Positions 1 through 3,759 of a stretch of 4,544 nucleotides of DNA are shown one piece after another. The number at the start of each line of letters is the position of its first letter. Positions within the stretch are counted from its first letter, which is position 1. This DNA comes from a virus (Duplodnaviria; Heunggongvirae; Uroviricota; Caudoviricetes). The stretch spans positions 1-4,544 of IMG/VR virus record IMGVR_UViG_3300028911_000051; one strand, written 5' to 3'. The position numbers and the translations under genes were made by a program. The notes beneath the pieces were generated by a model. The model saw only the letters and a list, made by a program, of their open reading frames with translations. It did not search any database and was not told where the DNA came from.

Positions 1-24
1 GTCATGTTTTTCAGGCATCTTCAT
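1..24 (-). CDS. S: Class I holin S, N-terminal 8 codons only (gene continues beyond window start)
   Basis: Minus-strand ATG at 24..22 and a second ATG at 18..16 give MKMPEKHD, the Met-Lys-Met dual-start N-terminus of lambda-type holin S (S107/S105). Lies directly downstream of Q and pR'. Only 24 nt are visible. Confidence 0.6.
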
Positions 25-30
25 GTCTTA

Positions 31-44
31 CCCCCAATAAGGGG
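31..44 (-). promoter_or_regulatory. Shine-Dalgarno-containing stem-loop upstream of the S dual start
   Basis: Minus strand reads CCCC-UUAUU-GGGGG followed by UAAGAC-AUG; the G-run serves as the SD and is sequestered in a 4-5 bp hairpin. Matches the known lambda arrangement in which RNA structure controls S107 versus S105 initiation. Confidence 0.5.
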
Positions 45-138
45 ATTTGCTCTATTTAATTAGAAATAAGGTCGATTACTGATAGAACAAATCCAGGCTA
101 CTGTGTTTAGTAATCAGATTTGTTCGTGACCGATATGC

Positions 139-180
139 ACGGGCAAAACGGCAGGAGGTTGTTAGCGCAACCTCTTGCCA
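139..180 (-). other. GC-rich hairpin followed by GUUUUGCCC in the late leader, about 130 nt upstream of S
   Basis: Minus strand GGCAAGAGGUUG-cgcuaa-CAACCUCCUGCC (12-bp stem, one mismatch) then GUUUUGCC. Terminator-like but with a weak U-tract; function uncertain. Confidence 0.3.
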
Positions 181-315
181 CCCGCTTTCACGAAGCCAGC
201 CATTGCGCTGGTTTTCTTTTATGCAAAGCACACCGCACCGTAGCCACAGCGGATAAGGTGATTATTTTTGTCTGTCTGGTATTTGGTTTGATGTGCTTTC
301 AGAAAGGTCGTGATT

Positions 316-350
316 AAAACGCAAAAAGCCCCGAGATATTAACTCAGGGC
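316..350 (-). terminator. Intrinsic terminator about 30-65 nt downstream of the pR' start (tR'-like, Q-regulated)
   Basis: Minus strand GCCCUGAG (350..343), loop UUAAUAU, CUCGGGGC (335..328), i.e. an 8-bp stem with one G-U pair, followed by UUUUUGCGUUUU (327..316). On the + strand the same hairpin is followed by TTTATTT, so it may work in both directions. Confidence 0.7.
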
Positions 351-374
351 TTTATTTAACGAGTGCATTTATCC

Positions 375-416
375 ATCGTTGATGTCAAATTTACCCAACT
401 TTATTCAAAAAGTCAA
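375..416 (-). promoter_or_regulatory. Late promoter pR' with qut-type elements (Q-binding region between -35 and -10; pause-inducing -10-like element in the initial transcribed region)
   Basis: Minus strand TTGACT (416..411), 17-nt spacer, TAAATT (393..388), then TGACATC and AACGAT (380..375). AACGAT is the -10-like pause element described for lambda pR'. Located 40-80 nt downstream of the Q stop, as in lambda. Confidence 0.75.
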
Positions 417-458
417 TATCATGCCGTTAATATGTTGCCATCCGTGGCAATCATGCTG

Positions 459-1061
459 CTAACGTGTGACCGCATTCAAAATGTTGTCTGCGATTGACTC
501 TTCCTTGTGGCATTGCACCACCACAGTGCGTGACCAGGTGGGTTGAGTAAGGTTTGGGATTAGCATCGTTACAGCGCGATATGCGGCGCTTGCTGGCATC
601 CTTGAATAGCCGACACCTTTGCATCTTCCGCACTCTTTCTCAACAACTCTCCCCCACAGCTCTGTTTTGGCAATATCAACCGCACGACCTGTACCGTGGC
701 AATCTCTGCATCTTGCCCCCGGCGTCGCGGCACTACGGCAATAATCCGCATAAGCGAATGTTGCGAGCACTTGCAGTACCTTTGCCTTAGTATTTCCTTC
801 AAGCTTTGCCACGCCACGGTATTTCCCCGATACCTTGTGTGCAAATTGCATCAGATAGTTGATAGCCTTTTGTTTGTCGTTCTGGCTGAGTTCATGCTTA
901 CCGCAGAATGCAGCCATTCCGAATCCGGCTTGTGATTGCGCCATCCCCATAGCAGCCATCACATCAGTACCGGAAAGAGAGTCAGAAGCCGTAGCCCGTG
1001 GTGAGTCGCTCATCATCGGGCTTTTTGGCGAATGAAATTTAGCTACGCTTTCGAGTCTCAT
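459..1061 (-). CDS. Q: Late-gene antitermination protein Q (lambda-type)
   Basis: 200-aa ORF with ATG at 1061..1059, GAGGGG SD about 8 nt upstream, TAG stop at 461..459. The translation is lambda-Q-like throughout, including the CRDCHGTGR...CGRCKGVG zinc-binding CxxC...CxxC pair, and is followed by pR'/qut. Confidence 0.93.
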   Translation of the reverse strand: MRLESVAKFHSPKSPMMSDSPRATASDSLSGTDVMAAMGMAQSQAGFGMAAFCGKHELSQNDKQKAINYLMQFAHKVSGKYRGVAKLEGNTKAKVLQVLATFAYADYCRSAATPGARCRDCHGTGRAVDIAKTELWGRVVEKECGRCKGVGYSRMPASAAYRAVTMLIPNLTQPTWSRTVVVQCHKEESIADNILNAVTR

Positions 1062-1246
1062 GGTCTTCCCCTCTTGCCCTGTTTGACCATCAGGACGCCG
1101 TTAACTATTACGTGACGCTCGCCTTTGCTGTCTCGGTTGTACTTGAGCACTGTTCCTCTTGCGCAGGAAAGCATCCTCGCCACTTCGGTCTGATTGCCTC
1201 GTGTCTGGATAAGAAGCTCTGGTATCGTTTGAATTGTGGCGTTCAT
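1058..1246 (-). CDS. ninH: NinH-like small DNA-binding protein
   Basis: 62-aa ORF containing GNQTEVARMLSCARGTVLKY, a helix-turn-helix segment characteristic of NinH. ATGA overlap with rusA stop (1246..1243) and with Q start (1061..1058). GGAGA SD 5-6 nt upstream. Confidence 0.85.
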   Translation of the reverse strand: MNATIQTIPELLIQTRGNQTEVARMLSCARGTVLKYNRDSKGERHVIVNGVLMVKQGKRGRP

Positions 1247-1605: not shown

Positions 1606-1892
1606 GACTTAATCTTCCCCTCCTTCAGCAGTATCGCCTGCGTCCTGATCACTCCTTCGAGGTGGTAAAGTCTGGCGTCTTTGTTGTCGAGGTTATGGGT
1701 GCGTCGGTCGATCTCCGCGTGGCAGTCACTACAAGCCCATGCGCCGATCAGGTCGTCAGGCTTCATTCCCGTTCCGCAAATTCCAGCCATCCGGTAATGT
1801 GCCAGAACTGTAGTTTCAGGATTACCATTGCATATGCCGTAAATACGTACCTGGCATTCTCTGCCGCGTGCTTCTTTGCGTAGGTTAGCCAT
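1602..1892 (-). CDS. ybcO: YbcO-like protein (DUF1364 family, putative Zn-binding nuclease)
   Basis: 96-aa ORF with a Cys/His-rich pattern (C..C..H...C..C.DCH) and a position immediately upstream of rusA, as for ybcO in the E. coli DLP12 prophage. Start overlaps the stop of the preceding ORF (TAATG at 1894..1890). Confidence 0.8.
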   Translation of the reverse strand: MANLRKEARGRECQVRIYGICNGNPETTVLAHYRMAGICGTGMKPDDLIGAWACSDCHAEIDRRTHNLDNKDARLYHLEGVIRTQAILLKEGKIKS

Positions 1893-2161
1893 TATGGTTC
1901 GCTCCAGTAATTCTCAATTGCAGCAGCCATTCTCTGCATCCACTCAGCCAGCTTTAACGCGGCTTCTCTTTCAGAACCACATTTAGGGAAATCCTTCATT
2001 TCCATGCTGGCCTTATATGTTCTGAATGCCAGGTCTCCGGTAATAACCAGCTCCTGATCAAGCACAGAGCGTTTATTCCGGTGTTGAACGTAATAGACAG
2101 ATTCAGCCCGCATTTCTTCTCTGTCTTTTTTGAAGGAAATAAGCTCAGAGAAATCACTCAT
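1892..2161 (-). CDS. Hypothetical nin-region protein (89 aa, family not recognised)
   Basis: ORF with ATG at 2161..2159, GAGGAAG SD about 9 nt upstream, charged and helical-looking composition, embedded in the coupled operon. No confident family assignment from memory. Confidence 0.7.
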   Translation of the reverse strand: MSDFSELISFKKDREEMRAESVYYVQHRNKRSVLDQELVITGDLAFRTYKASMEMKDFPKCGSEREAALKLAEWMQRMAAAIENYWSEP

Positions 2162-3477: not shown

Positions 3478-3684
3478 TCAACTCACAAAACGCCACGCCA
3501 CTTTTGCTACGACAACAGGCATAACACCGATAATCACCCACAGGAAAATGCTACCGAAAAGCACACCCACCAGGTCTTTACCTTCGCCTAACAACCGGAC
3601 AAAACTGCTGGCAACCACAATGAACGTCGCCACCATCCACATAGCACCGAGAATCCTCAATGCAGAAAAAATCAACTCAACCAC
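3478..3684 (-). CDS. Small predicted inner-membrane protein (68 aa, two hydrophobic helices), unknown function
   Basis: GTG start at 3684..3682 preceded by a strong SD GGGGGAGGG (3699..3691, 6-nt spacer). Two hydrophobic stretches (about residues 13-32 and 39-61). The stop overlaps the ninB SD. No family recognised. Confidence 0.55.
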   Translation of the reverse strand: MVELIFSALRILGAMWMVATFIVVASSFVRLLGEGKDLVGVLFGSIFLWVIIGVMPVVVAKVAWRFVS

Positions 3685-3700
3685 GATCTACCCTCCCCCA

Positions 3701-3731
3701 AATAAAAAGGCCTGCGATTACCAGCAGGCCT
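3701..3731 (-). terminator. Intrinsic terminator downstream of the helicase gene (tR2-like position)
   Basis: Minus strand AGGCCUGC (3731..3724), loop UGGUAAUC, GCAGGCCU (3715..3708), a perfect 8-bp GC-rich stem, followed by UUUUUAUUU (3707..3701). Unidirectional, because the + strand has no T-tract after the stem. Confidence 0.65.
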
Positions 3732-3759
3732 GTTACAAGCTCAGTGATGTAGATGGTCA

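What the first reader, a model, noticed from the sequence alone, without database searches (positions are those of the whole stretch)
459..560. Q appears to lack 7 residues near its C-terminus relative to lambda Q
The ORF is 200 aa and, as far as I can recall lambda Q (207 aa), is otherwise near-identical. The difference is an in-frame gap between ...TWSRTV and VVQCHKEES..., where I recall lambda having KPLYDAL. At the DNA level the junction is a GTG-GTG-GTG run (about 516..524 on the minus strand), which could be a microhomology-mediated deletion site. The Q C-terminal region contacts RNA polymerase, so this could alter or abolish antitermination, as in a decaying cryptic prophage, or it could be co-adapted to the altered late leader.
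Basis: partly seen in the sequence, partly recalled or inferred. Interest (0 to 1): 0.45.

Follow-up and report, generated by a model that had tools for sequence, protein, structure and literature searches.

The report
One-off 21-bp deletion in Q
A lambda-type phage late-gene switch protein (Q) in this contig has lost seven amino acids from the middle of its DNA-reading helix, a change seen nowhere else, and it is most likely a fresh disabling mutation rather than a new kind of Q.

Summary
The ORF at 459..1061 (-) encodes 200 aa that match lambda Q at every position, except that residues 181-187 (KPLYDAL) are missing. This is a 21-nt in-frame deletion with its junction at window 522-524.

The window is otherwise base-for-base identical (4544/4544) to a complete-looking prophage in E. 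coli GDSC2239PM. That prophage encodes a 207-aa Q identical to lambda Q.

The junction is absent from 5,426 complete E. coli genomes, whereas the intact segment occurs at 1,368 places in them. It is also absent from 50,697 phage records and from three contig collections. The exact 200-aa protein is on record once, on a 4,544-bp JGI/IMG contig that appears to be this window.

The segment is present and ungapped in all intact homologues down to about 35-50% identity. It forms two turns in the middle of helix H5, which is the second helix of the helix-turn-helix motif, part of the four-helix body, and part of the NusA-S1 contact.

The pR'/QBE/pause/tR' leader is the ordinary HK97-type leader, so there is no co-adaptation. 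Microhomology at the junction is 1 nt.

The most likely reading is a recent, probably inactivating lesion of Q in one prophage or phage lineage. Interest is low.

The parts
459..1061 (-). Q antiterminator gene, 200-aa allele. It equals lambda Q with residues 181-187 deleted.
   Evidence: Pfam PF03589 scores 165.5 bits here against 190.9 bits for a 207-aa relative.
522..524 (-). Deletion junction. The hybrid codon GT|G (Val180) joins the first two bases of parental codon 180 (GTT) to the last base of parental codon 187 (CTG). Twenty-one nt (TAAGCCGCTGTATGACGCTCT or TTAAGCCGCTGTATGACGCTC) are missing.
   Evidence: Alignments; sequence read.
516..524 (-). GTG-GTG-GTG run (Val180, Val188, Val189 in lambda numbering). 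Only the last two GTG are parental.
388..416 (-). Late promoter pR' (-35 TTGACT at 416-411, -10 TAAATT at 393-388). The Q-binding element lies in the spacer (410-390, TTTTGAATAAAGTTGGGTAAA), with 2 mismatches to lambda qut.
   Evidence: (promoter scan), annotations of HK542/mEp phages. Identical in HK97, HK542 and GDSC2239PM.
375..380 (-). -10-like sigma-dependent pause element AACGAT downstream of pR'.
   Evidence: Read directly. It aligns with lambda AACGAT. Its role follows from established lambda biology (PMC9388147).
316..353 (-). Intrinsic terminator tR' (11-bp stem, T tract), about 35 nt after the pause site.
   Evidence: Conserved in HK97 and HK542 apart from one loop base.
1..24 (-). 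First 8 codons of holin S (MKMPEKHD, dual-start motif). The contig ends here.
   Evidence: holin annotated at the matching place in GDSC2239PM.

Best explanation
This is a lambda-type Q antiterminator gene carrying a very recent, spontaneous 21-bp in-frame deletion. It sits in an otherwise unaltered lambdoid prophage or phage genome with an HK97-like late region and the same mosaic as the prophage next to dsdC in E. coli GDSC2239PM.

The deletion removes residues 181-187, about two helical turns, from the middle of helix H5. H5 is the second helix of the helix-turn-helix that reads positions 1-4 of the Q-binding element. It is also one of the four helices of the Q body and carries most of the NusA-S1 contact.

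Inference: whichever half of H5 keeps its place, one of two things goes wrong.
- If the N-terminal half stays, core positions are filled by polar residues (L183 to Q, L187 to E, V188 to E), and the C-terminal flap-tip contacts (L202, T206) shift by about 10 A.
- If the C-terminal half stays, the DNA-reading N-terminal turns are dragged out of the major groove.

Q therefore most likely cannot load at pR'. Late transcripts would stop at tR', and lysis and virion genes would stay off. The allele is probably null or strongly hypomorphic, either a first step of prophage inactivation or a dead-end variant.

Shown: the deletion itself, its uniqueness, its location in H5, conservation of the segment, and the unchanged cis elements. 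Inferred: loss of function.
For: - Identity to lambda Q apart from the gap.
- 4544/4544 identity to GDSC2239PM apart from the 21 nt.
- That prophage looks complete, with cI/cro/cII, replication, nin, Q, lysis, head and tail genes.
- The junction is absent from 5,426 E. coli genomes, while the intact segment is at 1,368 places in 1,237 genomes.
- The junction is absent from phage records, GTDB species genomes, IMG/VR and JGI metagenome contigs.
- The exact 200-aa protein is known from one 4,544-bp contig only.
- All nine fetched loci with a Q gene carry the identical intact 31-mer.
- The segment K-x-[LF]-[YFI]-[DE]-x-[LMV] is ungapped in all intact homologues down to about 35-50% identity, and Y184 is nearly invariant.
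- AF2 of a 207-aa relative places H4 at 157-167 and H5 at 173-206, with pLDDT 92-94 across the segment.
- PMC9388147 states that the body is H1, H2, H4 and H5, that the HTH is H4+H5, and that NusA S1 contacts residues 182-197.
- With essentially the same alignment, the deleted form drops from pLDDT 79.6 / pTM 0.70 to 64.9 / 0.51.
- TM-score to 7UBN_Q drops from 0.77 to 0.59.
- Other broken lambda-type Q alleles are common in databases.
Against: - No functional data exist for this allele.
- AF2 confidence is not a stability measure.
- Seven residues is close to two helical turns, so the helix phase is nearly kept. AF2 still draws a continuous helix 173-199, so a folded, partly active protein is not excluded.
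- The deletion being in-frame is weakly suggestive of retained function, although in-frame occurs 1 time in 3 by chance.
- The variant rests on a single short contig whose reads I could not inspect.
Confidence: 0.66

Rival explanations
1. The deletion is not a fixed biological allele. It could be a sequencing or library artefact (for example a PCR or MDA chimera, or a long-read consensus error), or a minority variant that the assembler happened to follow. In that case the real population carries the 207-aa Q.
For: It is a singleton: one 4,544-bp JGI/IMG contig, with no second sighting anywhere. Every other base is identical to a genome with the intact gene.
Against: A de Bruijn-graph assembler cannot create this junction without reads that contain it, because the flanks share only 1 nt (established property of such assemblers; junction). 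The region is neither repetitive, low-complexity, nor hairpin-forming. Typical long-read errors are short homopolymer indels, not clean 21-nt losses.
Confidence: 0.12
2. The short Q is functional, either neutral or with altered properties such as weaker or delayed late-gene activation or changed NusA dependence. On this view the near-two-turn deletion keeps the helical register.
For: The deletion is in-frame and 7 residues long. AF2 keeps a continuous H5 and the same secondary-structure elements. All known RNAP, sigma and zinc-ribbon contact residues outside 182-187 are still present (PMC9388147).
Against: No homologue in a family alignment spanning 35-100% identity tolerates any gap here. There are 0 of at least 1,368 E. 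coli loci with this junction. Nearly invariant Y184 is lost. Register mapping puts polar residues in core positions (inference). There is no compensating change in QBE, pause site or anywhere else in 4.5 kb.
Confidence: 0.1
3. The allele was selected in the host. It would be a lysis-off prophage lock, or a dominant-negative Q that still binds RNAP or NusA through its intact N-terminal and arm regions and interferes with the Q of related incoming or co-resident phages.
For: The frame is preserved, so a full-length protein with an intact N-terminal torus segment, zinc-ribbon arm and C-terminal tip is made. E. coli genomes often carry several lambda-type Q loci, up to 3 per genome.
Against: There is no sign of spread or persistence, since it is a singleton with zero accompanying substitutions. 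Q loading needs QBE binding in cis, which this lesion most likely destroys (PMC9388147, inference).
Confidence: 0.05

Closest known systems
Bacteriophage lambda Q antiterminator (Q-lambda; PDB 4MO1, 7UBJ-7UBN; Pfam PF03589)
   Same: All 200 residues present are identical to lambda Q. Retained features are the zinc-ribbon cysteines C118/C121/C144/C147, E134 at the arm tip, the N-terminal 1-60 torus and flap-contact segment, and the C-terminal L202/T206 equivalents. The gene sits in the same position upstream of pR'-QBE-pause-tR' and the holin S.
   Different: It lacks residues 181-187 (KPLYDAL) in helix H5 of the HTH and four-helix body, and part of the NusA-S1 contact 182-197.
Prophage of E. 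coli GDSC2239PM (NZ_CP136018.1, 1,418,713-1,423,277)
   Same: Identical at all 4,544 window bases: the same helicase, 68-aa ORF, ninB, dam, ninE, ninF, ybcO, rusA, ninH, Q, leader and S start.
   Different: It carries the 21 nt, and its Q is 207 aa and identical to lambda Q.
Late regulatory regions of HK97, HK022, HK542 and the mEp phages
   Same: The same short (about 430 bp) Q-to-S leader, with qut carrying 2 mismatches to lambda and a near tR'. About 95-96% DNA identity over window 1-1100.
   Different: All have the 207-aa Q. Lambda itself has a longer leader containing orf-64.
Other lesioned lambda-type Q alleles in prophages (e.g. P0034, 180 aa with an in-frame loss of about 27 aa; P0035, P0038 and P0040 with frameshifted tails)
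   Same: Rare or singleton damaged copies of the same gene family in enterobacterial genomes.
   Different: The lesions differ, and none shares this junction.

Membership tests
Q-lambda family antiterminator (PF03589) | Significant sequence similarity to lambda Q over the whole length | tested here: met
   E = 2.9e-130 to 7UBM_Q, with 200/200 aligned residues identical. PF03589 scores 165.5 bits against a cut-off of 26.7.
Q-lambda family antiterminator (PF03589) | Cys4 zinc-ribbon arm (C118, C121, C144, C147) | tested here: met
   All four cysteines are present and invariant in the family alignment.
Q-lambda family antiterminator (PF03589) | Intact four-helix body with a canonical HTH (H4 + H5) of family-standard length | tested here: not met
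   Seven residues (181-187) are missing from the middle of H5 (173-206 in the AF2 model). No intact homologue has a gap there. Model confidence and the TM-score to the solved structures both fall.
Q-lambda family antiterminator (PF03589) | Located just upstream of a late promoter with an embedded QBE, a sigma-dependent pause element and a terminator, followed by lysis genes | tested here: met
   pR' at 416-388, QBE at 410-390, AACGAT at 380-375, tR' at 353-325, S start at 24.
Q-lambda family antiterminator (PF03589) | QBE binding and terminator read-through activity | not testable with these tools
   Needs a gel shift and a pR'-tR' reporter or in vitro transcription.
Microhomology-mediated (slipped-mispairing) deletion | Direct repeat of several nt at both breakpoints, one copy retained | tested here: not met
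   Only 1 nt (T) is shared at the breakpoints. The 6/7 imperfect repeat CGCaCTG/CGCtCTG is spaced 23 nt rather than 21. There is no hairpin bringing the ends together.
Decaying / cryptic prophage | Several independent inactivating lesions or gene losses | tested here: not met
   Within the 4.5 kb window the Q deletion is the only difference from an intact-looking prophage, and all other ORFs are intact. The rest of the element is not in the contig.

The most novel reading that the evidence does not exclude
The 200-aa protein is a folded, naturally retained Q variant with changed behaviour, for example a weak or delayed antiterminator, or a dominant-negative Q that blocks late-gene activation by related phages. 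That would show helix H5 of Q-lambda tolerates loss of two turns.
Probability: 0.07. Interest if true: 0.5.

Novelty: new variant of a known kind. Interest (0 to 1): 0.15.

Why it matters
If the allele is real and null, it is a clean natural snapshot of the first inactivating hit on a lambdoid prophage: a single lesion in the late-gene switch with everything else untouched. That is ordinary biology but a tidy example.

It would also be a natural structure-function probe of Q-lambda helix H5. That helix combines DNA reading, bundle packing and NusA contact, so comparing the deleted and wild-type proteins could separate these roles. It opens no new kind of system and no long-standing question.

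Tried and rejected
- **Other sightings.** I searched for the junction in complete E. coli genomes, phage records, GTDB genomes, IMG/VR and JGI metagenome contigs and found none. The metagenome collection did not return the window's own contig either, so absence there is weak evidence.
- **Source contig.** The look-up of encoding contigs for the 200-aa protein found nothing on record. A look-up with the neighbouring 68-aa protein returned 10 related places, but not the source contig or its sample.
- **Deletion mechanism.** I tested hairpin or quasi-palindrome formation. The parental region folds no better than shuffled sequence on either strand. Slipped mispairing is rejected because the repeats have the wrong spacing.
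- **Co-adapted leader.** Rejected, because the leader is identical to those paired with the 207-aa Q.
- **Papers.** Vorobiev 2014 (PMC3951671), Guo & Roberts 2004 (PMC415771) and Deighan 2008 (PMC2563111) are not held. Residue-level DNA-contact and mutant data for H5 therefore could not be cited.
- **Rfam.** The scan of the window found nothing.

Full report
**What is in the window.** The 4,544-base window is a stretch of a lambdoid phage or prophage read on the minus strand.
- It runs from the C-terminal part of a DnaB-like helicase through a 68-aa ORF, NinB, a Dam-type methyltransferase, NinE, NinF, an 89-aa ORF, YbcO, RusA, NinH and Q.
- After Q come the late promoter region and the first eight codons of holin S.
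- The finding concerns Q, the ORF at 459..1061 (-), which is 200 aa long.

**Checking the observation.**
- A phmmer search of solved structures aligns the ORF to lambda Q (7UBM_Q, 207 aa; also 4MO1 and 7UBJ). All 200 residues are identical and there is one 7-residue gap: TWSRTV[KPLYDAL]VVQCHKEES.
- Counting along the alignment, with W176, E134 and C118/C121/C144/C147 as landmarks, the missing residues are 181-187.
- DNA alignments with lambda, HK97, HK542 and an E. coli prophage show 21 nt missing. The parent reads ...CGC ACT GT[T AAG CCG CTG TAT GAC GCT CT]G GTG GTG CAA.
- The deletion starts inside codon 180 and ends inside codon 187. The hybrid codon GT|G still encodes Val.

**Closest relative.**
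- The whole window matches the chromosome of E. coli GDSC2239PM (NZ_CP136018.1) over 4,565 bases.
- Two alignments that together cover the whole window show every one of the 4,544 bases identical. The 21-nt gap is the only difference.
- That prophage lies next to torI/dsdC. It carries repressor, cro, cII, replication, nin, Q, lysis, terminase, HK97-type head and sheathed-tail genes with few pseudogenes.
- Its Q is 207 aa and 100% identical to lambda Q.
- The deletion is therefore younger than any point substitution in 4.5 kb.

**How rare the short form is.**
- A 70-base query centred on the junction finds nothing in 5,426 complete E. coli genomes or in 50,697 phage records.
- A 91-base query for the intact region finds 1,368 places in 1,237 of those genomes.
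- The exact 23-mer junction is absent from one genome per GTDB species, from IMG/VR and from JGI metagenome contigs. It is found in the window as a control.
- The metagenome collection evidently lacks the window's own contig, so that negative result is weak.
- The exact 200-aa sequence is on record once, from JGI/IMG, on a contig of 4,544 bases. The window therefore appears to be that whole contig. Its 90% cluster has 3,759 members; of the 40 read, full-length members are 207 aa and the shorter ones are labelled partial.
- All nine fetched loci that contain a Q gene carry the identical intact 31-mer. These range from lambda to gut-metagenome contigs.

**Conservation of the segment.**
- The alignment of 31 family members runs from 98% down to about 50% identity to the window's Q. 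It includes the longer 255-276-aa forms with an extra zinc-ribbon insertion.
- Every intact sequence has the segment K-x-[LF]-[YFI]-[DE]-x-[LMV] without a gap.
- Y184 is nearly invariant among the 207-aa-type proteins.
- The other short sequences in the list (P0034, P0035, P0038, P0040) are differently damaged genes, not natural short forms.

**Where the seven residues sit.**
- Yin, Kaelber and Ebright (PMC9388147) describe Q-lambda in three parts. These are a disordered N-terminal 60 residues, a four-helix-bundle body (H1, H2, H4, H5; residues 61-113 and 153-207) and a zinc-ribbon arm (114-152).
- In that paper the canonical helix-turn-helix is H4+H5 and reads positions 1-4 of the Q-binding element.
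- The NusA S1 domain contacts Q residues 80-81, 106-107 and 182-197. The flap-tip helix of RNAP is contacted by residues 52, 56, 58, 202 and 206. Residues 195-207 refold to extend the C-terminal helix on RNAP.
- An AlphaFold2 model of a 207-aa relative that is 98% identical to lambda Q (P0002, 30-sequence alignment) places H4 at 157-167 and H5 at 173-206. Its pLDDT is 92-94 across 161-190. It matches 7UBN_Q with TM 0.77.
- Residues 181-187 are thus the third and fourth turns of H5. They come immediately after the N-terminal turns that face DNA and lie within the NusA-contact stretch.

**Likely consequence (inference).**
- Seven residues is nearly two turns, so the helix phase is roughly kept, but H5 becomes about 10 A shorter.
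- If the N-terminal, DNA-reading part stays in place, positions 181-200 are filled by residues 188-207. This puts Q, E and E at L183, L187 and V188, puts C at Y184, and displaces L202 and T206.
- If the C-terminal part stays in place, P174-V180 slide into the bundle. The H4-H5 turn can no longer present a recognition helix to the major groove.
- With essentially the same alignment, the AF2 model of the 200-aa protein keeps the same secondary-structure elements (H5 = 173-199) but loses confidence throughout the body. Mean pLDDT falls from 79.6 to 64.9 and pTM from 0.70 to 0.51. Ten-residue blocks fall from 92/94/89/94 to 73/75/75/82 over residues 61-100, and from 92/93/94/90 to 80/72/69/62 over the last four blocks.
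- The TM-score to 7UBN_Q falls from 0.77 to 0.59.
- The Pfam score drops by 25 bits.
- These are indications, not measurements of stability.
- I conclude, with about two-thirds confidence, that the allele is null or strongly hypomorphic. Q would fail to load at pR', transcripts would end at tR', and lysis and morphogenesis genes would stay silent.

**The cis elements are unchanged.**
- pR' (-35 at 416-411, -10 at 393-388), the embedded QBE (410-390, two mismatches to lambda qut), the AACGAT pause element (380-375) and tR' (353-325) are all present.
- The whole leader is identical to that of GDSC2239PM. Its promoter/QBE/pause/terminator core is also identical to that of the viable phages HK97 and HK542, except for one base in the terminator loop.
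- All of those phages encode a 207-aa Q.
- The short Q-to-S leader, about 430 bp against about 680 bp in lambda (which also has orf-64), is simply the common HK97/HK022/mEp form.
- The idea of co-adaptation to an altered leader is therefore rejected.

**How the deletion arose.**
- The breakpoints share a single T.
- The best nearby direct repeat (CGCaCTG / CGCtCTG) is 23 nt apart, which would give a frameshift rather than this product.
- Neither strand of the parental region folds better than shuffled controls.
- No specific mechanism is supported. It looks like an unremarkable illegitimate deletion.

**Could it be an artefact?**
- The variant rests on one short contig, and I could not reach its reads.
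- A de Bruijn-graph assembler cannot join these flanks without reads that contain the junction, because they share only 1 nt (established property of such assemblers). The sequence is not repetitive.
- I put about 0.12 on an artefact or a minority variant.

**Comparison with known systems, and novelty.**
- The gene is lambda Q in all but the lesion. It passes the family tests for sequence, zinc ribbon and genomic context.
- It fails the test of an intact HTH body, and its activity cannot be tested here.
- Damaged Q genes are common in enterobacterial prophages.
- This particular allele has not been seen before, but the kind of event is ordinary.
- I rate it a new, probably defective, variant of a known kind, with low interest (0.15).
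- The most novel reading not excluded is that the shortened protein still folds and acts as a weakened or dominant-negative Q. I give this probability about 0.07.

Noticed in passing
window 3478-3684 (-), with hairpin at about 3700-3735: A 68-aa, very hydrophobic ORF with no Pfam match sits between a terminator-like hairpin after the helicase gene and ninB. The exact protein occurs on 15 contigs, including human-gut metagenomes, next to two different replication modules (DnaB-like versus Toprim/AAA_25). This is moron-like behaviour.
   Followed up: partly
window 1892-2161 (-): An 89-aa ORF between ninF and ybcO has no Pfam family. It is annotated as hypothetical in GDSC2239PM.
   Followed up: no
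window 459-1061 (-) and P0002: The 87-position Pfam model PF03589 'Antiterm' matches Q twice, at residues 23-111 and 113-199. The two halves correspond to structurally different parts of Q.
   Followed up: no
P0002 model: The AlphaFold2 model of the 207-aa Q resembles the RNAP/NusA-bound 'engaged' conformation (7UBN_Q, TM 0.77), including N-terminal helices that are disordered in free Q. It resembles the free crystal forms less (target-normalised TM 0.63-0.70).
   Followed up: no
window 150-180 and 192-215: There are further terminator-like hairpins in the Q-to-S leader. One is GGCAAGAGGTTG...CAACCTCCTGCC followed by GTTTTG on the minus strand, conserved with lambda. The other is a plus-strand, antisense terminator-like site at 192-215.
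   Followed up: no
proteins P0034, P0035, P0038, P0040: Several other lambda-type Q genes in public genomes are damaged in different ways: an in-frame loss of about 27 aa, or frameshifted C-terminal tails. Q appears to be a frequent casualty in prophages.
   Followed up: partly
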